From NCBI GenBank assembly GCA_038065175.1, contig JBBTRN010000022.1, positions 1 to 48,395 on the forward strand: 48,395 nucleotides of DNA, given 5' to 3'. The translations under genes and the position numbers were made by a program. Positions 1 to 13,122 of the stretch are shown piece by piece. Below the pieces are notes generated by a model. That model was given only the letters and a program-made list of their open reading frames with translations. It was not told where the DNA came from and did no database searches. This DNA is from Patescibacteria group bacterium. Lineage in GTDB: Bacteria > Patescibacteriota > Doudnabacteria > UBA920. Positions within the stretch are counted from its first letter, which is position 1. Each line of letters begins with the position of its first letter.

Positions 1-3000
1 CGTCGTCCCGATGCCGACGTTGCCGACCTGTGTGACCGTTAAGAGTTGCGTGCCCGTGGAAGACGCAACCACAAACGGATTAAGCCCACCGCTTCCCACC
101 ACAGCCAAAGAAGCAATGGGGGAAGTAGTGCCTATGCCGACATTAGAATTAAATATCGCGGTGTTGTGCGCCACAATGCCGCCGAAGACAACATTTTCGG
201 GGTGCACATCCAAGGAAAGCAGTTTTTTATACAACAGTTTGACTCTGTTTGACAAACCGTTTCCGAACATCATATAATTATGACGCATGAAATTAACACT
301 TAGACTATCTTCTGAAAATCGTTTATCCAGACTATCCGATATTGCCGCCGACATCGGCCAGATATTTTTCGCAACAGTATTTCTTGGTCCGTTCTTTTCC
401 GAAAAAACTAATTGGTGGACAGTATTATTCGGTCTGGTTTTCTCTGCCGCGGCCTGGTTTGCCAGCTTATTATTAACTAAAGAATAATCATGGATACTCT
501 CTCCAACAATATGATTAACGTCTACATCCTCGGTGGTATTTTGCTCATCATCATAATCCTTTTGGGCATCCTGGCCAAGCAGGATAAATAACCCATCTTG
601 ATCATTTTCAGGCCCAAGATCATTTTTTTGATGGTCTTGAGCTTTTATTTTTTCGGTGTTCAGAGCCTGAATATATTGAGCGTAAACCTCCTCTTGTTCC
701 GGAGTTAAAGCCTCGCCTTTTGCAACATCAACATAATGCCCGCCAACAAAGTTGTGGGTGTTTTCTATTTCAATATCATATGTTTGCTCCTTAATTCCTG
801 TTTTATATATGGCAGTAATTGCTTCCCAGCCATCTACTGTCGCGACTAACATCCCTTCACGCAAATATTTTGCCTCTATCCATTTAGCCATTGACATCTC
901 TCCTCTTGACAAGCTAAGAGGGCTATGATCTTGTAAATCTACAAGAGATCGTGTGGGCTGCGAATCCCCGAAAACCTTGTCCGGATGTAACAGTTCTACC
1001 GCCAGGGATTCATTGAAATCCAAGCTGGCCATGGTCTCGAGAAGAACGTCCCTCTGGGGCGTTTTTCGTTTTGTAGCCCTGTTATAGTCCTTGCCTTGAT
1101 AAATTTTATCCAATGGCGTACTATAGTAATAGGCAGGCGAAGAGGATACTCCTGCCGTAACCTGCATTTTATTTTGCTTGACAAATTCTATAATACGCTC
1201 TATACTGAACTTACTGGAATGAGGCAAGCTGGGCTTGACCTCATTCTTTTTTTGTTTCCGCTTAAGTAAAGCTAAAATTCGTCCGGCAATCGGCTTACGA
1301 ACTTCATCAATGCCATCGCGCATAATAAACACCACCGCTCCCAGCAATATATCGGCAAGCTGTAAAAAGGCGCTTCCCTGACTTTCCAAGGGTATAATAT
1401 TTTCAACCATAGGCAAGCTGGCCATTTTCTCAATAGCCTTATCCAACTTTGCCGGGGCGTGGAGGTAGTCGGCAAGCACCGAAACTTTAACTGTTGAAGC
1501 CTTAAGCATCTGCGCCAGCATATCGTGATACTGGTTCCAGAAATGCGCGCCACTCCTTTGCTGGAAAATGCAGGCAAAATCCCAAAATTCACTATAGCGT
1601 TCCAGTATGTCCAATAACTGCGTATAGAACCCGACACTTTGTTTGGTAATATAGCTGAATTTAAATTCAAATGTTTTCTCGTTTTGATTGGGCAGCCTGG
1701 AAGCCGCGTCCAGAAAAATATTTCGCAAATGGTGGTTTATCTCCGAAGCTCTGTCATGGACTACAATACCGCCCACCCCGACAGTATCTTCCCTGCCAGC
1801 CGTAAACAGAGTAATTTCGTCCACAAACATAAAGTGGGCTTTTTTATTTTGAAATTTTTCCTTTTTAGCCGGTAAAATTTCCTGCGATTTTTCCAAAGCA
1901 AAGTAAGGATGATTTCCCGTGGTGCGGATAGCTTTGCCGCTACGGGTAATTAATTTATAGGTTTCCTGCTGACCCATATCCTGAAGAGCCTTAACCCTGC
2001 TCCAGGTAAAGCCACCATCCGGTTCCATGCTCAAAATTTCATCACCCGCCTGGATTTGGTCTATGCGGACTTCTTCCCACTCTTCGATGTATTCATCCGA
2101 TCCATCCGATTTTCTGATTTTCCGGCGTTTGCGCCTGCGCAAACGCGTATCCCCCGTAACACACTGCCCCACCACATGCATAACGCCGCTTGGGGTCGTC
2201 GTCCCGATGCCGACATTGCCGGTACTTGTCAATCTAACCCATTCAGTATTATTCGTTCCAAGAACAAGCGGTTGGCCAGAAAATGTTCCTACCGTGAGAG
2301 GGACGTCAGATGAAGCCTCCATTACCAAACCTGTTTGACCGGCAGTGAAGCCAAATCGTGTGTTTCCTGAAGTACCAATATAAAGCTGTGAACTTGTGCC
2401 TCTCACCAGGCTAAATACATTTCCAGATCCATCTCCAACTTGTAGCTTCGCCCCCGGCACCGCCGTCCCAATTCCGACATTTCCGGTCGCGGTATTAACA
2501 AAAAGAGTGGGGGTTGAAGAAGTGCCGACTGTAAGGTTACCGTAAACATCCAATTTAGACGCGGGGCTGTTGGTGCCAACACCTAAACGGTTATTGCTGT
2601 CATCCCAAAAGAAGTTGGCGTTGTCTTCCAAAATGTTGGACGCGCCCTGGAAAAGTACAGAGCCTTGAGTTAAGCCCGGGTTTAAGCCGGTTACGGTTAA
2701 CCCTGCTATTGTAGTTGAGCCGCTAAAGGTGGCAGCGCCGGAAACGGTAAGTCTTGAGAGGGTAGATGTGGCGGCAGACAGAGTGCCGGCTAAAGCAGTA
2801 TTGCCGGAAACATTGACAGTCTGGGAGTTTAAGATGTTGATGGCGGAATTGTCCGAGGAAAAATAAGTAAACGAACCAATAGTGCCGTTGCCCTGTCCTC
2901 CGGGGTTGCCTAAGTTCACATAACCGATGCTCCACCCGCCTTGTAAGGTGGAGCCGGCGCCGGCCGGGCCTTGCGCGCCAATGTCGCCCTTGCCGCCTTT

Positions 3001-4080
3001 TTCCCCTTTGAATTTTCCTTCAGAGAGATATTGGTTAAGTCGGGAGTCAATAAGCTGGTTTATGTAATTAGGGTCAACTGCGGTTTCGCCGAGGACGCTG
3101 CCCCGGCTGTCATTGCGAGCCCCGGGCGAGGAATCCCTTAAATGGGATTCAAAAGATGATAAGGGATCCCTTGACTGTCTAACATCAACGGATAAGGGAT
3201 TCCTCGACTCTCCGCCCGCTGGCGGATCGCTCGGAATGACAAAAGCAAAATTATTTCCGTAATCAAACTCATTCCTCGCGTACTTGTCCAAAAGGCCGAC
3301 ATTGCCGACAAGGCCATTCCAAACATTTACAGCTAACGATTTGCCTTGATTTTTCTGTTCATTGAATGAAGAAATAATAACATTCCCTCCGGCCAGATAC
3401 GGAGCTTTTATATCAGCCCAAAAATTTATTGCCAGGTTTTCTATTTGGCTTCCTGCATGGCTGGCGAGCGAAATTACCGCGACCGCATCGTTGCTTATTT
3501 CCGCTTTAGTTTTGACGTAAGTTTTTTGAGTTTCCGATTTAAAATGGTTTGAGAAACCTTTTATTTCCCCCAGATCGCTTAAAATATCCGTGCCCAAATC
3601 CAAAATCGCCTCATTCGTTTCAGCTCGGAAATAATGAAGATAATCCCTGGCTTCGGTTAAGGCATACGAAACAGTTTTAGGCGTTTGAAAATTCGCCAAT
3701 AACAGCCTCGGCTGAAAATCCACAAACCGCGAAATGAAAAAGCCTTCGGTGGCTATCATTAACAGGCAAGTGAGGCCTAAAAGAAAGTTTAGGGAGAGGA
3801 AGCCGGCTTGAGTTTGTAAAGCCCGCAGGGGAATCCGCCTGCGGCTCTCCTCAAACTTCCGCATAAGCTTTTTATGTTTTACCTCCTGCCGCAATACATA
3901 ATCCGCCACTATATCGTTGGTGGTATGCCAGTCATTATTCTTTTTTACGCCCGTAATTCGGCCCTTTCTCACCAGAAGCCTTAAATATTCAGCCGAATAA
4001 GGCGTATTCTGCGCGGCTTCGGAAAGCGGAACGAGGTCTGCCTCGCGCTTAACTAAAAGCTCGCGCTGCTGCGCTGTCAT
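1..4080 (-). CDS. Giant surface / tail-fibre-like protein (3' end runs off the window), interrupted by an intein-like insert
   Basis: The minus-strand frame is stop-free from ATG 4080 to base 1. This explains its absence from the supplied track, which appears to list only ORFs with an in-window stop. Translation shows MTAQQRELLVKREADLVPLSEAAQNTPYSAEYLRLLVRKGRITG (HTH-like), a TM helix FLSLNFLLGLTCLLMIA, a collagen-like GEKGGKGDIGAQGPAGAG run, and repeated GNVGIGT(T/A)xP units. The same unit resumes at 1-160 in the same frame. Confidence 0.78.
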   Translation of the reverse strand, partial: MTAQQRELLVKREADLVPLSEAAQNTPYSAEYLRLLVRKGRITGVKKNNDWHTTNDIVADYVLRQEVKHKKLMRKFEESRRRIPLRALQTQAGFLSLNFLLGLTCLLMIATEGFFISRFVDFQPRLLLANFQTPKTVSYALTEARDYLHYFRAETNEAILDLGTDILSDLGEIKGFSNHFKSETQKTYVKTKAEISNDAVAVISLASHAGSQIENLAINFWADIKAPYLAGGNVIISSFNEQKNQGKSLAVNVWNGLVGNVGLLDKYARNEFDYGNNFAFVIPSDPPAGGESRNPLSVDVRQSRDPLSSFESHLRDSSPGARNDSRGSVLGETAVDPNYINQLIDSRLNQYLSEGKFKGEKGGKGDIGAQGPAGAGSTLQGGWSIGYVNLGNPGGQGNGTIGSFTYFSSDNSAINILNSQTVNVSGNTALAGTLSAATSTLSRLTVSGAATFSGSTTIAGLTVTGLNPGLTQGSVLFQGASNILEDNANFFWDDSNNRLGVGTNSPASKLDVYGNLTVGTSSTPTLFVNTATGNVGIGTAVPGAKLQVGDGSGNVFSLVRGTSSQLYIGTSGNTRFGFTAGQTGLVMEASSDVPLTVGTFSGQPLVLGTNNTEWVRLTSTGNVGIGTTTPSGVMHVVGQCVTGDTRLRRRKRRKIRKSDGSDEYIEEWEEVRIDQIQAGDEILSMEPDGGFTWSRVKALQDMGQQETYKLITRSGKAIRTTGNHPYFALEKSQEILPAKKEKFQNKKAHFMFVDEITLFTAGREDTVGVGGIVVHDRASEINHHLRNIFLDAASRLPNQNEKTFEFKFSYITKQSVGFYTQLLDILERYSEFWDFACIFQQRSGAHFWNQYHDMLAQMLKASTVKVSVLADYLHAPAKLDKAIEKMASLPMVENIIPLESQGSAFLQLADILLGAVVFIMRDGIDEVRKPIAGRILALLKRKQKKNEVKPSLPHSSKFSIERIIEFVKQNKMQVTAGVSSSPAYYYSTPLDKIYQGKDYNRATKRKTPQRDVLLETMASLDFNESLAVELLHPDKVFGDSQPTRSLVDLQDHSPLSLSRGEMSMAKWIEAKYLREGMLVATVDGWEAITAIYKTGIKEQTYDIEIENTHNFVGGHYVDVAKGEALTPEQEEVYAQYIQALNTEKIKAQDHQKNDLGPENDQDGLFILLGQDAQKDYDDEQNTTEDVDVNHIVGESIHDYSLVNNKLANQAAAEKTRPNNTVHQLVFSEKNGPRNTVAKNIWPMSAAISDSLDKRFSEDSLSVNFMRHNYMMFGNGLSNRVKLLYKKLLSLDVHPENVVFGGIVAHNTAIFNSNVGIGTTSPIASLAVVGSGGLNPFVVASSTGTQLLTVTQVGNVGIGTT
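249..278 (+). promoter_or_regulatory. Consensus sigma70-type promoter, TTGACA-18 nt-TATAAT
   Basis: TTGACA lies at 249-254 and TATAAT at 273-278. The ATG of the 287..487 ORF is 8 nt downstream, a leaderless-type geometry also seen at lexA, recJ and dnaX in this window. Confidence 0.6.
287..487 (+). CDS. Small membrane protein (66 aa, two predicted TM helices), antisense to the intein-like region
   Basis: The ORF directly follows a perfect promoter. Hydrophobic segments are IGQIFFATVFLGPFF and WWTVLFGLVFSAAAWFASLLL. Confidence 0.5.
   Translation: MKLTLRLSSENRLSRLSDIAADIGQIFFATVFLGPFFSEKTNWWTVLFGLVFSAAAWFASLLLTKE
490..591 (+). CDS. Small membrane peptide (33 aa, one TM helix)
   Basis: The ATG lies 2 nt after the stop of 287..487. 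Translation is MDTLSNNMINVYILGGILLIIIILLGILAKQDK. It is below the length cutoff of the supplied track. Confidence 0.4.
   Translation: MDTLSNNMINVYILGGILLIIIILLGILAKQDK
595..629 (+). terminator. Hairpin plus T7 run closing the + strand mini-operon
   Basis: ATCTTG (595-600) pairs with CAAGAT (615-620), followed by CATTTTTTT. Confidence 0.4.
1300..1835 (-). other. DUF3800-like domain embedded in the intein-like element
   Basis: FMFVDE (N-terminal DE motif) and SAFLQLADILLGAV (QxxD motif) match, from memory, the two signature motifs of Pfam DUF3800. The domain occupies the position where inteins normally carry a homing endonuclease. Confidence 0.5.
3109..3240. repeat. Palindromic MITE-like element (GTCATTSCGAGC ... 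GCTCGGAATGAC termini), in frame in the surface-protein gene
   Basis: The terminal inverted repeats are gtcattgcgagc / gctcggaatgac. The inner IR is cgaggaatccctta / taagggattcctcg and the central palindrome is aagggatccctt. It reads through as VIPSDPPAGGESRNPLSVDVRQSRDPLSSFESHLRDSSPGARND with no stop. Confidence 0.75.
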
Positions 4081-4284
4081 TTTTGTTTGGCTTGCCCCGT
4101 AGTAAACGCCACCGATGATGCCGTTCTACAAAGACAATGTTGTTTATTTTTGTTTCACGCCGGAAATAAAACCTTTTAGCGCGTTTTACTACCGGGGTTT
4201 CTTGATTTTACAAAACCGCTTATTTTGAGCGATTTTGAAATATCCGATTGATACCCGACAGGTATCTGATACTTTTCTACTCTT

Positions 4285-4313
4285 ATTCTAGCAAAAAAAT
4301 CTCTATCTGTCAA
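4285..4313 (-). promoter_or_regulatory. Promoter of the surface-protein gene, TTGACA-17 nt-TAGAAT
   Basis: The reverse complement of 4308-4313 is TTGACA and of 4285-4290 is TAGAAT. About 190 nt of hairpin-rich 5' leader follow before ATG 4080. Confidence 0.55.
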
Positions 4314-6214
4314 CGGCACCCATCTTCTAGGCAATCTTCTAGGCGGTAAAGGTAACCAAATTCATGCTGTTCAGGCAATTCCCCGCCAATCCCCTGCTTA
4401 AGCGGTTCATCAGACAGGACAAAAACCGGCCGGCCATGGGGCAAGGTCTTTTTTAAAACGAAAATGGGCTGGCGGTCGTAAATTTCCATTGTATCCAGGC
4501 CTGACCAATATTGGAAATACAAATGGCCTTTGGGCAAGTTTGGAAAGTTGATAAGGAAAATAGCATCTTGCGTGTATTTTTCTTTAAGCTCCAACGCCGC
4601 CCGCTTGATCTGTTCTTGATATTGGTAACCTTCTCGCGGCTTTATGTCGGAAAGCCGGTTAGCGCGCGCATATGTGCCTAAAATTAAAAATAACGATAAT
4701 ACCATGGCGATTTTTGATCCCTGACCCCGCCCTCCGACTCGCTCCGCTCGCTTTGGCAACATACTATGGAATCCTTTTTCCAATAAACGATAAACCATCC
4801 ACAATGCGGCAAAAAGTAAGGCCGCGTACAGCAAAATCTGAAAGCGCTCAAAAGCGGTATTGGTTTGAAATAAATGATATTTTACCTGCCGCACATCTAA
4901 ACGTATAATGATGTATGATAAAATTGTCGTAGCCGATAAAGCAAACATCGCGGCATAATGTTTTTGTTCCCATAACCGCTTAAACATTAACGCCGTAAGC
5001 ATTAGCATGGCAGGCAAAGCCGCAAAAATAAAATTGGAAATTTTTGTCAGGCCAAAAGACAATGGCACCAAAAACGACAAAACCCAAATAGTCAGAAAAA
5101 AAATTCGCTCTTTACTTAAATACTGTACAGTATTTAAGTTAAAGCTGGATATTGGCTTTTTAAAACCTGCCCACAAACCAAAAATTATCGCGGCTACAGC
5201 AGACACATACAAATACGGCAACAGCATTTCCCGCAAATATATAGTCAGGTAATAATCCCACGGCCTGCCCCAATATTCTAATTCTTTTAATAAGTGCAGG
5301 GTCTGGGTATTTTGCTCAAAATAATATTCAGCGGGATATAGCAAAAACAAGCCAAGCTTTTCCGGCAAGATAATTATTAACATAGTAAGCCCCGCATACA
5401 AAAAATTTAATAATCCGCGTTTCCATCCATCGGCCGTTTTTGACACCATGAACAACGCCGGGAAAAATAGCAACGCCAATCCGCCTTTGCTTAAAAAAGC
5501 CAAGCCGGCAAACACTCCGAACCATAGATAATGCTTTCTCCTTGTCATTCCGAGCGAGCCCGACGGCTTCGAGGGCGAGTCGAGGAATCCCTTATTCGAC
5601 GTATCATCGATATTTAAGGGATCCCTCCACGCCTCTTCGGATGCACTCCTCGTTGGTCGGGATGACAGTTCTGTAATTCTCAAAACCCTACCCAGCGCCA
5701 AAATTCCAAAAAAACAAAACATCAAATCGTGCAAACCCGAAAACTGCCTGCCCTTTACCAATTCAAAAACATAAGGGCTAAAGGCAAACAAGCTGGCTGA
5801 TGTAACGGCAACCGCATACCCGAAATGCCTTCGCGCAACAAAAAAAAGCGCCGTGATCGATATCAAGGCAAATATTGCCGAGGGCAGCCTGAACGCAAAT
5901 AGCGAAGGGTTGATTTTATAAAAAACCGCCTGCAAATACAAAGGCGCTAAAGGTTTATGCACCCAAATATAGTTATTCGTCCAGTCCTGGAAATCTATGC
6001 CGATATCCGTCAAATGGAGCTTTGGCGGCCAAGGATCCTGACTTAAATTTTTCACGACATTGATATGGACAGCCTCATCCCACAAAGTAATGTAATCTGT
6101 GCCTAAATTATTAAAATAAAAATACCCGGACACAGCCAAAACAACCACCAGCGGTATAAGCTGGCCTTTGGGGCTAGCTACGAAAAAAATCCAAAGCTTT
6201 TTTACAAATTCCAC
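4310..6214 (-). CDS. GT39 / ArnT-PMT-like membrane glycosyltransferase
   Basis: Polytopic membrane protein with an N-terminal motif LWDEAVHINVVKNL typical of 4-amino-4-deoxy-L-arabinose/dolichyl-phosphate-mannose-type transferases. I moved the start to GTG 6214 because residues encoded by 6230-6409 belong to a repeat element. Confidence 0.65.
   Translation of the reverse strand: MEFVKKLWIFFVASPKGQLIPLVVVLAVSGYFYFNNLGTDYITLWDEAVHINVVKNLSQDPWPPKLHLTDIGIDFQDWTNNYIWVHKPLAPLYLQAVFYKINPSLFAFRLPSAIFALISITALFFVARRHFGYAVAVTSASLFAFSPYVFELVKGRQFSGLHDLMFCFFGILALGRVLRITELSSRPTRSASEEAWRDPLNIDDTSNKGFLDSPSKPSGSLGMTRRKHYLWFGVFAGLAFLSKGGLALLFFPALFMVSKTADGWKRGLLNFLYAGLTMLIIILPEKLGLFLLYPAEYYFEQNTQTLHLLKELEYWGRPWDYYLTIYLREMLLPYLYVSAVAAIIFGLWAGFKKPISSFNLNTVQYLSKERIFFLTIWVLSFLVPLSFGLTKISNFIFAALPAMLMLTALMFKRLWEQKHYAAMFALSATTILSYIIIRLDVRQVKYHLFQTNTAFERFQILLYAALLFAALWMVYRLLEKGFHSMLPKRAERVGGRGQGSKIAMVLSLFLILGTYARANRLSDIKPREGYQYQEQIKRAALELKEKYTQDAIFLINFPNLPKGHLYFQYWSGLDTMEIYDRQPIFVLKKTLPHGRPVFVLSDEPLKQGIGGELPEQHEFGYLYRLEDCLEDGCR
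5114..5139. repeat. 26-bp perfect palindrome ACTTAAATACTGTACAGTATTTAAGT inside the GT39 CDS
   Basis: Perfect dyad symmetry, read in frame as NLNTVQYLS. Two related copies lie at 46602-46631 and 47174-47199. Confidence 0.85.
5544..5666. repeat. Second copy of the GTCATTCCGAGCG-type palindromic element, in frame in the GT39 gene
   Basis: Sequence gtcattccgagcgagcccgacg...cgaggaatccctta...taagggatccct...cgttggtcgggatgac. It encodes SSRPTRSASEEAWRDPLNIDDTSNKGFLDSPSKPSGSLGMT without a stop. Confidence 0.75.
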
Positions 6215-11427: not shown

Positions 11428-11697
11428 CTACTTAAGATTTTTGACAAAACTCACCGCGTCCTGCAGCTTTTTAAAAGACTGATATTTACCCTGTTGCCTT
11501 TCCTGGCGGGCTTCCTTGATGGCTTCTTTCAAATATTCGCTCGGCTCTTCATGTATAACAATCGCCCCGCTGTTTACTACCTGCCTTAAAGACAAATTCA
11601 CAATATCAGACAGGCTCATGCCCGCGTTTTGCGCGAATGCCTGGGCGCGGCGCTTAAGCGCCGGCTCGGTTTTAATATTGATAGTCGCTGTTTTCAT
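11428..11697 (-). CDS. DinJ/RelB-family antitoxin
   Basis: MKTATINIKTEPALKRRAQAFAQNAGMSLSDIVNLSLRQV is an RHH DinJ-like N-terminus. The start is taken at Met21 of the listed ORF. Confidence 0.7.
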   Translation of the reverse strand: MKTATINIKTEPALKRRAQAFAQNAGMSLSDIVNLSLRQVVNSGAIVIHEEPSEYLKEAIKEARQERQQGKYQSFKKLQDAVSFVKNLK

Positions 11698-11763
11698 ATT
11701 AATAATGGTATTACTTTTAATACATAAAGTATTACATATCAAATTGTACATTGTCAAGCATCT

Positions 11764-13122
11764 TTAAAGTTCTTTCACCCTACCAAATCCCACGCTGTCC
11801 CTAAAGACCTTGCCAGCGGCTAGGATTGGCGCGCGGATGATAGTGAATTCGCCGTATTTGTCGTTAATTTGGTCTAGGGCTCTGGTTAAATTAAGATGTT
11901 TTTCCCGATGGCCAAATAAGCTTAACTGACTGCTTTTAGAACGCAAATTCGCCAGAGTAACACCAATGAGCTTAAAGGCTTGTCCTGATAATTTTAACCG
12001 CTCGAAAATAATCATGGCCTGTAAGAATACATCCCGTCCGTCAGAGACAAAATCCCCCAGCTTTAGGCTTTGCCCAAAGCCGCCGTAATCTCTATCATAG
12101 ATAAAAAAATGCAAAACATTGCCTTCCAAATTTTTCCGCCTTAAACGTCTCCCCACCATTTCGCATAATTTATACAGCACCGGCGCGAAAAATTCGGATT
12201 TGCGAAATTCTTTCGGCAAAGTGTACATATGGCCAATAGACTTAATTTCGTTGTCCTGATGAACATCCGCCTTCCAAGTCGAATCTAATTGGCCCAAATT
12301 ATACAAGTGATGTCCTTGGATGCGGCCAAACCTTGCTACCAAATGGCTCTTAGGGCAATTCTTTAAATCAAGAAGGGTGTGGATGCCTAAAGCGTTAAGG
12401 TTTTTCTCCTGTCGCGTCCCAATTCCAGGTACATCTGTCAATTTCAGACGACCGTACAAATTTTCTTTCGATAATACAAATAAATTATTTTTGAATTTTA
12501 AATTGTAATTTTGAGTTTTGCATTTTGCATTTTGAATTATTGTCAAGCCATCAGGCTTGCGTATGTCCGACCCGATTTTCGCCAATGTTTTATTTTCCGC
12601 TATGCCAATACTGCAAGTTAAATAATCCCCCACCTCGGTTTTCATTCGCCGTTTAATATCCAAAGAAATATTTATAGCTTCTTCAAAAGGATCAATCACC
12701 CCACCCCTTCCCTCCCCCTGGAGGGGAGGGATTGAGGGAGGGGGGCTTTTTGAAATTTGGCATTCGAATTTCGGATTTCTAATATTACATGTTCGTGTAA
12801 TATCCAAAAAAACTTCATCTATACTATATACTTCCACATCATCAGTATAATCAGACACGAGTTTGATTAACCTGCGCGTGTAAAACCGAAACCTCTCGGC
12901 CGTGGTGTGGGTTAAAATAATTTTCGGATAAAGCTTCTTGGCTTCCCACACCGGGGTGCCGGTTTTTATGCCCCATTTTTTGGCTTCTATGCTCGCGGCT
13001 ATAATAATCCCGCCCAAATCCTCGCACACACCCAAAACCTTGCCTCGGTATTCAGGATTATCCTGCTGGAGCACGGAGGCAAAATAACTATTCATGTCGA
13101 GATGGAGGATAATGGACTGCAT
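11764..13122 (-). CDS. dinB: DNA polymerase IV (Y-family) carrying two in-frame repeat insertions
   Basis: MQSIILHLDMNSYFASV, SIDEVFLDIT, SIGIAENKTLAKIGSDIRKPDG and DVPGIG motifs. Start set at Met10, because the first 9 codons are TTGATAA-type repeat sequence. Confidence 0.88.
   Translation of the reverse strand: MQSIILHLDMNSYFASVLQQDNPEYRGKVLGVCEDLGGIIIAASIEAKKWGIKTGTPVWEAKKLYPKIILTHTTAERFRFYTRRLIKLVSDYTDDVEVYSIDEVFLDITRTCNIRNPKFECQISKSPPPSIPPLQGEGRGGVIDPFEEAINISLDIKRRMKTEVGDYLTCSIGIAENKTLAKIGSDIRKPDGLTIIQNAKCKTQNYNLKFKNNLFVLSKENLYGRLKLTDVPGIGTRQEKNLNALGIHTLLDLKNCPKSHLVARFGRIQGHHLYNLGQLDSTWKADVHQDNEIKSIGHMYTLPKEFRKSEFFAPVLYKLCEMVGRRLRRKNLEGNVLHFFIYDRDYGGFGQSLKLGDFVSDGRDVFLQAMIIFERLKLSGQAFKLIGVTLANLRSKSSQLSLFGHREKHLNLTRALDQINDKYGEFTIIRAPILAAGKVFRDSVGFGRVKEL
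12488..12537. repeat. 8-nt-periodic AT-rich repeat arm inside dinB
   Basis: ttttgaattttaaattgtaattttgagttttgcattttgcattttgaatt, translated as NAKCKTQNYNLKFKN. This is extra sequence relative to the E. coli DinB spacing between KPxG and PGxG (from memory). Confidence 0.6.
12697..12790. repeat. GC-hairpin (CCCTCCCC-CTGG-AGGGGAGGG) plus 8-nt-periodic arm, in frame in dinB
   Basis: caccccaccccttccctccccctggaggggagggattgagggaggggggc followed by tttttgaaatttggcattcgaatttcgg. It encodes KFECQISKSPPPSIPPLQGEGRGGV. The same architecture occurs at 17089-17148 and 40524-40591. Confidence 0.8.

What the first reader, a model, noticed from the sequence alone, without database searches (positions are those of the whole stretch)
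249..629. Complete antisense mini-operon (perfect promoter, two membrane peptides, terminator) embedded in the intein-like region
Seen on the + strand: TTGACA-18 nt-TATAAT, with an ATG 8 nt after the -10. A 66-aa ORF with two TM helices follows. A 33-aa single-TM ORF starts 2 nt after its stop. Then comes a hairpin plus T7.

The opposite strand stays stop-free through all of this. There it encodes only low-complexity, acidic sequence, located between the degenerate and the intact C-terminal splicing blocks.

Inference: the low-complexity stretch of the intein-like ORF may exist mainly to keep the host reading frame open across a selfish cargo. The cargo could be holin-like or toxin-like membrane peptides that help the element persist.
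Basis: partly seen in the sequence, partly recalled or inferred. Interest (0 to 1): 0.65.

Follow-up and report, generated by a model that had tools for sequence, protein, structure and literature searches.

The report
Antisense membrane-peptide operon nested in intein
A conserved two-gene operon for small membrane peptides, typical of Patescibacteria (CPR bacteria), lies on the opposite strand inside the intein of a giant surface-protein gene, and the host reading frame is kept open across it as a filler that would be spliced out with the intein.

Summary
The + strand mini-operon is real, not a chance antisense ORF.

- **ORF1** (287-487, 66 aa, two TM segments) has 78 relatives in an exhaustive HMMER search. 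The best is E = 2e-17, 61% identical and full length.
- **ORF2** (490-591, 33 aa, one TM segment) matches a 29-35-aa peptide that follows the ORF1 homologue in all 25 Patescibacteria cassettes examined.
- **Promoter**: its -10 box ends 8 nt before the ATG, which implies a leaderless mRNA. At least 12 relatives share this layout.

The cassette lies in a 561-nt, 187-codon insertion. The insertion splits one C-terminal splicing motif, THNFVGG | IVAHNT (blocks F and G), of a 667-aa intein. Related inteins, and insert-free contigs in the same groundwater metagenomes, read THNFVGNGIVAHNT.

Substitutions between cassettes fall at + strand wobble positions. The minus-strand peptide is therefore a passive shadow. 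It is nevertheless in frame and stop-free (chance about 7e-5), so the host frame is under selection.

No evidence supports a holin, toxin or addiction role. Expression, splicing and function are untested.

Verdict: a real and unusual arrangement, a new variant of nested or overlapping genes.

The parts
249..278 (+). Sigma-70-type promoter: TTGACA, 18-nt spacer, TATAAT. The -10 box ends 8 nt before the ORF1 ATG, which implies a leaderless mRNA.
   Evidence: the only 12/12 match in the window, 0.01 expected by chance. At least 12 of the other 24 related cassettes have a -10-like hexamer ending 5-9 nt before the ORF1 ATG. The -35 region GTTTGACAAA is shared with L026.
287..487 (+). ORF1: a 66-aa protein with two TM segments, a member of a Patescibacteria small-membrane-protein family distantly like Pfam DUF6722.
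   Evidence: 78 hits at E <= 1e-3; the best is 2.2e-17, 61% identical and full length; the motif LSxIxxDIGQxFFAxxFxGP...NW...GL.LS...W..SLLL and the conserved residues I19, P35, G49 and W57 are present. DUF6722 E = 7.7e-4, below the gathering score; two TM-like segments.
490..591 (+). ORF2: a 33-aa single-TM peptide, the conserved partner of ORF1, starting 2 nt after the ORF1 stop.
   Evidence: every ORF1 homologue examined is followed within -11 to +35 nt by a small ORF, 29-35 aa in all but one locus. Family consensus: MNxxxNxMINxYILGALLAIAIILLxILAKK. The window peptide is 73% identical to L026 and 70% to L002.
595..656 (+). Intrinsic-terminator region on the + strand. There are two alternative hairpins: 595-620 followed by T7, and the stronger 615-639 stem followed by TTTTATTTTTT. 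The reverse complement has no T-run after the stem, so it should not terminate the host transcript.
   Evidence: MFE -17.7 kcal/mol, z = -3.0. No minus-strand terminator-like site lies in 1-900. The point about direction is read from the sequence.
178..738 (-). 187-codon in-frame, stop-free insertion between intein blocks F and G. The middle part (about 250-633) is the antisense shadow of the cassette.
   Evidence: The Pfam intein model match stops at block F, model position 148 of 155. The AF2 model shows no secondary structure for residues mapping to window 250-633, at low confidence.
178..241 (-). Left flank of the insertion: minus-strand coding sequence (..RVKLLYKKLLSLDVHPENVVFGG) shared with insertion variant V.
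   Evidence: variant contigs match 169-241 with 13 differences. Of the 5 differences listed, 4 fall at minus-frame third codon positions.
641..738 (-). Right flank of the insertion: minus-strand coding sequence (HYVDVAKGEALTPEQEEVYAQYIQALNTEK..) shared with variant V.
   Evidence: positions 704-744 are identical in V. The preceding 30 nt of V translate in the minus frame to TEEQEAVYYEY, against TPEQEEVYAQY in the window.
739..780 (-). Intein block F (YDIEIENTHNFVGG).
   Evidence: The consensus of related inteins is YDIEVEGTHNFIGNxIVAHNT.
160..177 (-). Intein block G (IVAHN) and the +1 Thr of the C-extein.
1900..2163 (-). Intein N-terminal splicing domain (Cys1, CVTGDTRL ... TTGNHPYF).
   Evidence: Pfam Intein_splicing 38.3 bits, above the 35.8 cut-off.; pLDDT 83-93.
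1..4080 (-). Host gene: a giant GNVGIGTT-repeat surface protein of a Patescibacteria-type genome. It runs off the left end of the window.
   Evidence: L001 continues it for a further 440 aa.

Best explanation
**What it is**

A two-gene operon that is widespread in Patescibacteria lies on the + strand. It has its own consensus promoter and its own terminator. It encodes a leaderless 66-aa two-TM protein and a 33-aa one-TM peptide. The operon is nested in the loop between splicing blocks F and G of a 667-aa intein, and that intein interrupts a giant surface-protein gene on the minus strand.

**What is shown**
- The two + strand ORFs carry the conserved, selected protein sequences.
- The minus-strand reading of the same DNA is a hydrophilic, acidic shadow with no conservation of its own.
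- That shadow is in frame, its length is a multiple of three, and it is stop-free well beyond chance.
- Both flanks of the insertion are ordinary minus-strand coding sequence. A cassette-free variant of the same loop insertion shares them.
- Insert-free relatives have an uninterrupted F-G motif.

**What is inferred**
- The host precursor is translated through the cassette. The shadow forms a disordered loop at a position of the Hint fold that tolerates interruption. The whole intein, loop included, is removed by protein splicing, so the mature surface protein is unchanged.
- The intein therefore acts as a safe harbour. The only constraint on the nested DNA is that the minus frame has no stop and no frameshift.
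- The cassette is probably transcribed from its own promoter, convergently with the host gene, to make two small membrane proteins that act together. Their function is unknown.
- It most likely arrived by illegitimate recombination into a pre-existing F/G-loop insertion.
For: **The cassette is real**
- Exhaustive phmmer of ORF1 gives 78 representatives at E <= 1e-3. The best is 2.2e-17, and most hits are full-length proteins of 55-76 aa.
- The family motif and invariant residues are intact.
- In 24 of 25 cassettes a 29-35-aa partner follows; in L014 the downstream ORF is 58 aa.
- The promoter is unique in the window, with 0.01 expected by chance.
- The -10 box close to the ATG is a family trait.

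**Selection is on the + frame**
- ORF2 differences between the window and L026, by + codon position 1/2/3, are 8/3/20. Against L002 they are 9/5/21.
- The antisense words NNKLANQ and EKNGPR.T.AKNI.P recur in stand-alone L002, where the minus frame has 6 stops.

**The host frame is maintained**
- Probability of being stop-free: 0.83 over ORF1 and 0.036 over ORF2 under synonymous resampling.
- By shuffling, the probability is 0.094 and 0.026 for the non-ORF parts. The product is about 7e-5.
- The insertion is 561 nt, which is 187 codons.
- Cys1, the block B His, His-Asn and the +1 Thr are all intact.

**It is an insertion**
- P0002, P0003, P0006, P0010 and P0013 have F and G contiguous.
- Contigs joining 181 to 742 through 'TT' read THNFVGNGIVAHNT in runs X2, X3 and X5.
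- Variant V shares both junctions, with a 255-nt core in place of 462 nt, and is also in frame.

**It is not an artefact**
- The identical sequence occurs in an independent ENA assembly.
- It is held by groundwater metagenome runs from 4 studies, at single-copy depth across 242-703.

**The shadow looks unstructured**
- The AF2 model has no secondary structure for residues 511-638, which map to window 250-633. This is weak evidence because confidence is low.
Against: - There are no expression data. No RNA run holds the region, so + strand transcription, translation of ORF1 and ORF2, and host translation through the insert are all untested.
- Splicing competence with 187 residues between blocks F and G is inferred only. 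AF2 does not dock block G confidently (pLDDT about 50-59), and the DUF3800-like domain also scores low, so the model has little discriminating power.
- A codon-usage model trained on the window's genes scores the minus frame as coding (+0.29 nat per codon) and the + ORFs as slightly antisense-like. The same bias appears for ORF1 in 7 of the other 24 cassettes, so this test is uninformative for ORF1.
- Only one population carries the arrangement, with no polymorphism across 53-1503. Post-insertion selection on the + ORFs therefore cannot be measured.
- The stop-free state could have been selected at the moment of insertion rather than afterwards. The closest stand-alone relatives are already stop-free in that antisense frame.
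- The function of the cassette is unknown.
Confidence: 0.72

Rival explanations
1. Dead passenger. The cassette copy inside the intein was captured recently and is not expressed or needed. Only the host frame is under selection, and the + ORFs are intact simply because too little time has passed.
For: There are no expression data. There is no sequence variation in the population. The closest relatives were already stop-free in the antisense frame, so little adaptation was needed. The window's ORF2 has the most antisense-like codon usage of all 25 cassettes.
Against: The promoter is a perfect 12/12 consensus, better than in any stand-alone relative. All family-invariant residues and both ORFs are intact. 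Differences from the nearest relatives fall at + strand wobble positions, although this measures the whole lineage and not only the time since insertion.
Confidence: 0.14
2. Selfish addiction or lysis cargo. The two membrane peptides are toxin-like or holin-like and stabilise the intein or help it spread.
For: The products are small hydrophobic peptides driven by a strong promoter. The family occupies variable genomic positions with no conserved neighbour. Two copies occur in one MAG (L004 and L019). Two of 44 neighbouring genes are IS200-like transposases.
Against: There is no match to PADLOC, PHROGs or NCBIfam. None is found in viral contigs. The neighbours are housekeeping genes such as RuvB, EF-Tu, MetK and FtsW, not lysis or mobile-element genes. 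The strictly conserved two-protein architecture is unlike type I toxins. Paralogous inteins in the same community lack the cassette.
Confidence: 0.08
3. Broken host gene. The insertion inactivated the intein or the surface-protein gene, and the open minus frame is a coincidence of composition.
For: Frame A opposite ORF1 is almost automatically open (P = 0.83). Long antisense ORFs are common in this window: 62 + strand ORFs of at least 66 aa. Block G is not docked confidently in the model.
Against: The joint chance of an in-frame, stop-free 187 codons is about 7e-5. All catalytic residues are intact. Variant V is also in frame at 118 codons. Its flank differences fall at minus-frame third positions.
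Confidence: 0.04
4. The + strand ORFs are chance antisense ORFs, or the region is an assembly chimera.
For: The antisense of acidic codons is hydrophobic by the structure of the genetic code. The word-based protein search found nothing for ORF1.
Against: Homology to a large family, with a conserved partner gene. The same sequence occurs in an independent assembly and in runs from four studies.
Confidence: 0.02

Closest known systems
Inteins carrying a nested homing-endonuclease domain (and nested inteins)
   Same: Foreign coding DNA is lodged inside the intein and removed from the host protein by splicing. The host frame must stay open. The intein serves as a tolerated insertion site.
   Different: Known intein cargo is encoded on the same strand and in frame, as part of the intein polypeptide, usually between blocks B and F. 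Here the functional genes are on the opposite strand with their own promoter and terminator, they lie between blocks F and G, and the same-strand reading is only filler. The central domain of this intein is DUF3800/PDC-M04A-like, not LAGLIDADG or HNH.
Rickettsia palindromic elements (Ogata et al. 2000, Science; cited from memory) and other in-frame selfish insertions in ORFs
   Same: A DNA segment inserted inside a protein-coding gene remains in frame and stop-free, and is translated as extra, tolerated peptide.
   Different: Those elements are 100-150-bp palindromic repeats with many copies and no genes. This segment has no inverted repeats and only one copy in 48 kb. It encodes two conserved proteins on the other strand, and its peptide would be removed post-translationally.
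Antisense overlapping (ambigrammatic) coding, for example the reverse ORF of narnaviruses (PMC8316113)
   Same: About 300 nt are stop-free on both strands. One frame carries the conserved protein. The other is kept open without conservation of its own amino acids.
   Different: This case is bacterial DNA, not an RNA virus. The open reverse frame has an evident reason: it is part of a host gene.
Pfam DUF6722 small membrane proteins
   Same: About 60-70 aa with two TM helices. There is a weak profile match over positions 7-49 of 49 (E = 7.7e-4). Seven of 32 family members match, the best at 4.6e-5.
   Different: The score is below Pfam's gathering cut-off (20.1 against 27 bits). The Patescibacteria family is at best a distant branch. 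No function is known for either, and no paper mentions DUF6722.
Split-intein site before the last beta-strand (the engineered 'S11' split inteins with a 6-residue C-intein; Appleby et al. 2009, J Biol Chem; cited from memory)
   Same: The chain is interrupted at the loop before the final IVAHN strand. Engineered inteins tolerate a break at this position.
   Different: Here the chain is continuous with a 187-residue loop, and nothing has been tested experimentally.

Membership tests
Intein (Hint-fold protein-splicing element) | Nucleophile (Cys, Ser or Thr) at intein position 1, and block B TxxH | tested here: met
   CVTGDTRL at 2163-2140 and TTGNHPYF ending at 1900. These residues are invariant in the alignment with 17 related inteins.
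Intein (Hint-fold protein-splicing element) | Profile match above the curated threshold | tested here: met
   Pfam PF14890 Intein_splicing: 38.3 bits against a cut-off of 35.8, E = 1.5e-9. The match ends at model position 148 of 155, that is at block F.
Intein (Hint-fold protein-splicing element) | C-terminal His-Asn followed by Ser, Thr or Cys at +1 | tested here: met
   IVAHN | T at 177-160.
Intein (Hint-fold protein-splicing element) | Blocks F and G adjacent (typical, as in all relatives) | tested here: not met
   They are separated by 187 residues. The relatives read THNF[IV]GN[GD]I[IV]AHNT.
Intein (Hint-fold protein-splicing element) | Actual protein splicing | not testable with these tools
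   This needs an in vivo or in vitro splicing assay.
Patescibacteria two-gene small-membrane-protein cassette (DUF6722-like protein plus 1-TM peptide) | Full-length sequence similarity of ORF1 to family members | tested here: met
   phmmer E = 2.2e-17 and 61% identity over residues 5-65. The motif and the residues I19, P35, G49 and W57 are present.
Patescibacteria two-gene small-membrane-protein cassette (DUF6722-like protein plus 1-TM peptide) | A 29-35-aa single-TM partner directly downstream | tested here: met
   Window ORF2 lies 2 nt downstream and is 73% identical to the L026 partner. The partner is present in 24 of the 25 cassettes examined; L014 has a 58-aa ORF instead.
Patescibacteria two-gene small-membrane-protein cassette (DUF6722-like protein plus 1-TM peptide) | Own promoter with the -10 box 5-9 nt before the ORF1 ATG | tested here: met
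   The window distance is 8 nt. At least 12 of the other 24 cassettes have the same layout, several with TGn-extended -10 boxes.
Pfam DUF6722 | Score at or above the Pfam gathering threshold | tested here: not met
   20.1 bits against 27. Seven of 32 family members match at E < 0.01.
Phage holin or lysis cassette | Match to holin families, adjacency to endolysin or phage genes, presence in phage genomes | tested here: not met
   No PHROG hit for 32 family members. No relative in viral contigs. The neighbours are housekeeping genes.
Type I toxin-antitoxin or known defence systems | Match to known toxin or defence models | tested here: not met
   PADLOC gives no hit for ORF1 or ORF2. NCBIfam gives none.
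Type I toxin-antitoxin or known defence systems | Toxicity on expression, and an antisense RNA antitoxin | not testable with these tools
   This needs an expression test.
MITE- or RPE-like in-frame repeat element | Terminal inverted repeats or a palindromic structure | tested here: not met
   No terminal inverted repeats in 100-850. There is only a 9-10-nt direct repeat, GGCGG(G)CATT, at the two junctions (175-183 and 735-744), read from the sequence.
MITE- or RPE-like in-frame repeat element | Many copies per genome | tested here: inconclusive
   One copy in the 48-kb window. Two diverged copies in one MAG (L004 and L019). The whole genome is not available.

The most novel reading that the evidence does not exclude
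The clade of cassettes closest to this one (window, L026, L027, L004) is pre-adapted, or selected, to be stop-free on its antisense strand. That lets it settle inside other genes' reading frames in antisense orientation.

- It has done so at least twice. One case is the intein loop described here.
- The other is L026, where it lies in the N-terminal region of a Zn-ribbon/PD-(D/E)XK nuclease ORF, in a 743-codon stop-free frame.

If this is right, it is a new way for a small operon to hitch-hike inside coding DNA. Inteins would be ideal hosts because they erase the filler peptide from the mature protein.
Probability: 0.22. Interest if true: 0.85.

Novelty: new variant of a known kind. Interest (0 to 1): 0.66.

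Why it matters
Inteins are known to shelter same-strand homing endonucleases. I found no report of an independent, opposite-strand operon with its own promoter and terminator nested inside an intein (literature searches).

- **Inteins as safe harbours.** If the host protein still splices, inteins can carry unrelated genes. The only cost is a stop-free filler, and that filler is removed post-translationally.
- **A clean natural case of dual-strand coding.** About 300 nt are read on both strands, and one can see which strand is selected for sequence and which only for openness.
- **A blind spot in annotation.** Gene callers took the long minus ORF and missed both small genes. ORF1 of this locus is absent from a 5.8-billion-protein collection. 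Embedded copies of small-protein genes will be missed systematically.
- **An unstudied protein pair.** The analysis brings to light a widespread, uncharacterised pair of small membrane proteins in Patescibacteria.

Tried and rejected
**Searches that found nothing**
- The word-indexed protein search found nothing for ORF1 or for the 187-aa minus-strand insert. Only the exhaustive search revealed the ORF1 family.
- RNA runs: none hold the region, so there is no test of transcription.
- PDB sequence searches with the ORF1 and ORF2 family profiles: nothing.
- Literature: no paper mentions DUF6722. No paper on antisense genes in inteins was found.

**Ideas tested and rejected**
- The left end of the insert as a diverged duplicate of block F: DNA and protein local alignments are no better than shuffles.
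- A transposon or MITE: no terminal inverted repeats. An 18-nt imperfect direct repeat (194-211 and 650-667) brackets the cassette but may be chance.
- A conserved neighbourhood as a clue to function: 44 flanking proteins of stand-alone cassettes share no family.

**Tests that were uninformative**
- Codon-usage coding potential favoured the minus strand. It proved uninformative because stand-alone ORF1 homologues show the same bias.
- dN/dS within the population is impossible: the second assembly, L001, is identical across 53-1503.
- The AF2 model of the whole intein (mean pLDDT 48) is confident only for the N-terminal and F-block subdomains. It cannot settle whether block G docks.

- The first alignment for locus finding was too diverse.
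- The full sequence of variant V could not be recovered.
Full report
**1. The observation**

The + strand carries TTGACA (249-254), an 18-nt spacer and TATAAT (273-278). Eight more bases follow before an ATG at 287. A search for TTGACA-N16-18-TATAAT finds this site and no other on either strand of the 48,395-base window; 0.01 matches are expected from shuffles.

ORF1 (287-487) encodes 66 aa with two hydrophobic 19-residue segments. ORF2 (490-591) starts 2 nt after the ORF1 stop and encodes 33 aa with one very hydrophobic segment. ORFs of this length are common on the + strand: 62 are at least 66 aa long. Only 2 of the 254 + strand ORFs of at least 30 aa have two TM-like segments.

A stronger alternative is a 10-bp stem at 615-639 followed by TTTTATTTTTT (MFE -17.7 kcal/mol, z = -3.0). 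The reverse complement has no T-run after the stem, so the host transcript should pass through it. That point is read from the sequence.

**2. The minus strand**

One minus frame is open from 4125 to the left end of the window. The gene, starting at ATG 4080, encodes a GNVGIGTT-repeat surface protein. Its relatives are all from Patescibacteria (CPR bacteria).

An intein runs from Cys640 (2163-2161) to Asn1306 (165-163), followed by Thr at +1. It has block A (CVTGDTRL), block B (TTGNHPYF), block F (YDIEIENTHNFVGG, 780-739) and block G (IVAHN, 177-163). Pfam Intein_splicing scores above its cut-off, but the match stops at model position 148 of 155, at block F.

The central domain is not a classical homing endonuclease. 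It matches DUF3800 weakly and PADLOC PDC-M04A at E = 3.4e-10.

**3. A 187-codon insertion splits one motif**

Related inteins read THNFIGNGIVAHNT, THNFVGNDIVAHNT and similar, with F and G contiguous. The window reads THNFVGG, then 187 residues, then IVAHNT. A direct test for similarity between the two regions gave nothing above shuffles.

The junctions carry a 9-10-nt direct repeat, GGCGG(G)CATT, at 175-183 and 735-744. There are no terminal inverted repeats.

**4. The + strand genes are real**

The word-indexed search found nothing for ORF1. The exhaustive HMMER search against 1.84 billion representatives found 78 proteins at E <= 1e-3. The best is 2.2e-17 and 61% identical over residues 5-65, and most hits are 55-76 aa long. 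The alignment gives the motif LSxIxxDIGQxFFAxxFxGP......NW.....GL.LS...W..SLLLxK. The window protein has all invariant and near-invariant residues. The Pfam match to DUF6722 is sub-threshold and is shared by 7 of 32 members.

I examined 23 distinct related loci from ENA assemblies, GTDB genomes and JGI metagenomes, excluding the duplicate contig L003 and the divergent L014. In every one, the ORF1 homologue is followed within -4 to +35 nt by a 29-35-aa single-TM peptide with the consensus MNxxxNxMINxYILGALLAIAIILLxILAKK. The window's ORF2 fits it, at 73% identity to L026 and 70% to L002.

At least 12 of the related cassettes have a -10-like hexamer ending 5-9 nt before the ORF1 ATG, often with a TGn extension. 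The leaderless layout is therefore a family trait.

**5. Which strand is selected**

In ORF2 the two frames are codon-aligned, so + position 3 is minus position 1. Differences between the window and L026, by + codon position 1/2/3, are 8/3/20. Against L002 they are 9/5/21, and against L004 12/9/21. Change is concentrated at the + strand wobble position, which is mostly non-synonymous in the minus frame.

Over ORF1, the minus-frame translation of stand-alone L002 contains the same words as the window (NNKLANQ, EKNGPR.T.AKNI.P) together with stops. The minus peptide is therefore a mirror image of ORF1 and ORF2. Its acidic, low-complexity character follows from reading TM codons backwards.

The data show the reverse.

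**6. The minus frame is kept open**

Holding the ORF1 and ORF2 proteins fixed and resampling synonymous codons from the window's own usage, the minus frame is stop-free with P = 0.83 over ORF1 and P = 0.036 over ORF2. ORF2 uses none of TTA, CTA or TCA, although TTA plus CTA make up 37% of Leu codons in the window.

The non-ORF parts are stop-free with P = 0.094 (178-285) and P = 0.026 (592-738) by shuffling. The product is about 7e-5, before requiring a length that is a multiple of three.

The window's ORF2 also has the most antisense-like codon usage of all 25 cassettes. All catalytic intein residues are intact.

Stand-alone cassettes in GTDB genomes are closed on the minus strand just outside the cassette.

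**7. Population evidence**

An independent ENA assembly (L001) is identical across window 53-1503. Groundwater metagenome runs from four studies hold the sequence. Depth across 242-703 is single-copy and equals that of the intein body, while both ends are multi-copy.

Two other forms occur in the same samples.
- **Insert-free form.** Contigs join 181 to 742 through 'TT', which reads THNFVGNGIVAHNT. These are paralogues or alleles without the insert (runs X2, X3, X5).
- **Variant V.** It shares 704-744 exactly and 169-241 with 13 differences, but has a 255-nt core in place of the 462 nt at window 242-703. It is present in X1, X5 and X7 and absent from X4.

V's insertion is 354 nt, or 118 codons, so it is also in frame. 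Four of the five listed flank differences fall at minus-frame third positions. The 30 nt before 704 translate to TEEQEAVYYEY, against TPEQEEVYAQY in the window. The 30 nt after 241 are GC-rich and unlike the cassette promoter.

So the insertion flanks (178-241 and 641-738) are ordinary minus-strand coding sequence belonging to a variable F/G-loop insertion. The cassette proper is about 242-640. BLAST against L026 likewise limits homology to 287-599, with weaker protein-level similarity extending to 639.

The low-confidence AF2 model places helices in both flanks and no secondary structure at residues 511-638, which map to window 250-633.

**8. Function of the cassette**

Function is unknown.
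- Neighbours of the stand-alone cassettes are unrelated housekeeping genes (RuvB, EF-Tu, MetK, FtsW, S1 and others), with no recurring partner.
- There are no PADLOC, NCBIfam or PHROG matches.
- No relative occurs in viral contigs, no relative has a solved structure, and there is no literature on the family.

The holin, toxin or addiction idea therefore has no support, though toxicity was not tested. The most economical reading is a pair of interacting small membrane proteins of Patescibacteria physiology, present here as a copy lodged in an intein.

**9. Mechanism proposed**

Shown:
- A conserved + strand operon.
- A minus-strand shadow.
- A host frame that is selected to stay open.
- An insertion at the F/G loop.

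Inferred:
- The host precursor is translated through the filler, which forms a disordered loop before the last beta-strand of the Hint fold. Engineered split inteins tolerate a break at that site (from memory, not tested here).
- Splicing then removes the intein and filler together.
- The cassette is transcribed convergently from its own promoter, which could also dampen host-gene expression.

**10. Rivals**

- A silent, recently captured copy (0.14).
- An addiction or lysis cargo (0.08).
- A dead host gene with a coincidentally open frame (0.04).
- Chance ORFs or an assembly chimera (0.02, refuted).

**11. Comparison and novelty**

The closest known arrangements are these.
- Inteins with nested same-strand homing endonucleases.
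- In-frame selfish repeats such as Rickettsia palindromic elements.
- Ambigrammatic reverse ORFs (PMC8316113).

None combines an independent opposite-strand operon with an intein host. I rate this a new variant of a known kind.

**12. An open lead**

The closest relative, L026, also sits antisense inside a 743-codon stop-free frame that continues into a Zn-ribbon/PD-(D/E)XK-like protein. The stretches outside the cassette are stop-free with P = 0.003 and P = 0.033.

All four closest cassettes are stop-free in one antisense frame. This may mean that this clade repeatedly lodges inside ORFs.

Noticed in passing
window about 1195-1830 (minus strand; host aa 751-962): The intein's central domain is not a LAGLIDADG or HNH homing endonuclease. 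It matches PADLOC PDC-M04A (E = 3.4e-10) and, weakly, Pfam DUF3800. Related Patescibacteria inteins carry NYN domains (PF01936) instead.
   Followed up: partly
L026:2608-4839 (JGI contig Ga0080064_1001854): The closest relative of the cassette (ORF1 67% and ORF2 73% identical) also lies antisense inside a 743-codon stop-free frame. That frame continues into a Zn-ribbon plus PD-(D/E)XK-like protein. The flanks outside the cassette are stop-free with P = 0.003 and P = 0.033. No start codon lies near the Zn-ribbon.
   Followed up: partly
window 169-744, in runs X1, X5 and X7: Variant V of the F/G-loop insertion has the same junctions as the window form but an unrelated 255-nt core, GC-rich at one end. 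It occurs at a depth similar to the window form and is absent from run X4. Only 30 nt at each end of the core could be read.
   Followed up: partly
window 1-6000: Promoter-like sites are in excess: 21 against 9.4 +/- 3.0 in shuffles. They include TTGACA-17-TATACT at 1178-1206 (+) inside the intein. There is also a 12-bp-stem terminator-like hairpin at 1041-1067 (+).
   Followed up: no
window 11516-11767 (+): This is the only other + strand ORF with two TM-like segments (83 aa). It lies in a gap between minus-strand genes and may be a real small membrane-protein gene.
   Followed up: no
window 1-52 and 2190-2225: DNA encoding the GNVGIGTT repeat reaches depths of hundreds to thousands in groundwater metagenomes and produces many spurious joints. 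L001 differs from the window at a run of positions spaced three bases apart within 10-52, probably because repeat copies were mixed during assembly.
   Followed up: no
window 194-211 and 650-667: An 18-nt imperfect direct repeat (14 of 18 identical) brackets the cassette core. It could be an insertion signature or chance.
   Followed up: no
L026:770-1132, 1492-1947, 2191-2562: Three paralogous ORFs of 120-151 aa lie downstream of the nuclease-like gene. From memory they resemble four-helix-bundle proteins of 23S rRNA intervening sequences. They were not tested against Pfam.
   Followed up: no
L001:8212-10317 (P0001): The ENA assembly of the same genome (coverage about 2x) has many single-base deletions relative to the window. 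These break the host gene into two called proteins. They are probably assembly errors, not biology.
   Followed up: partly
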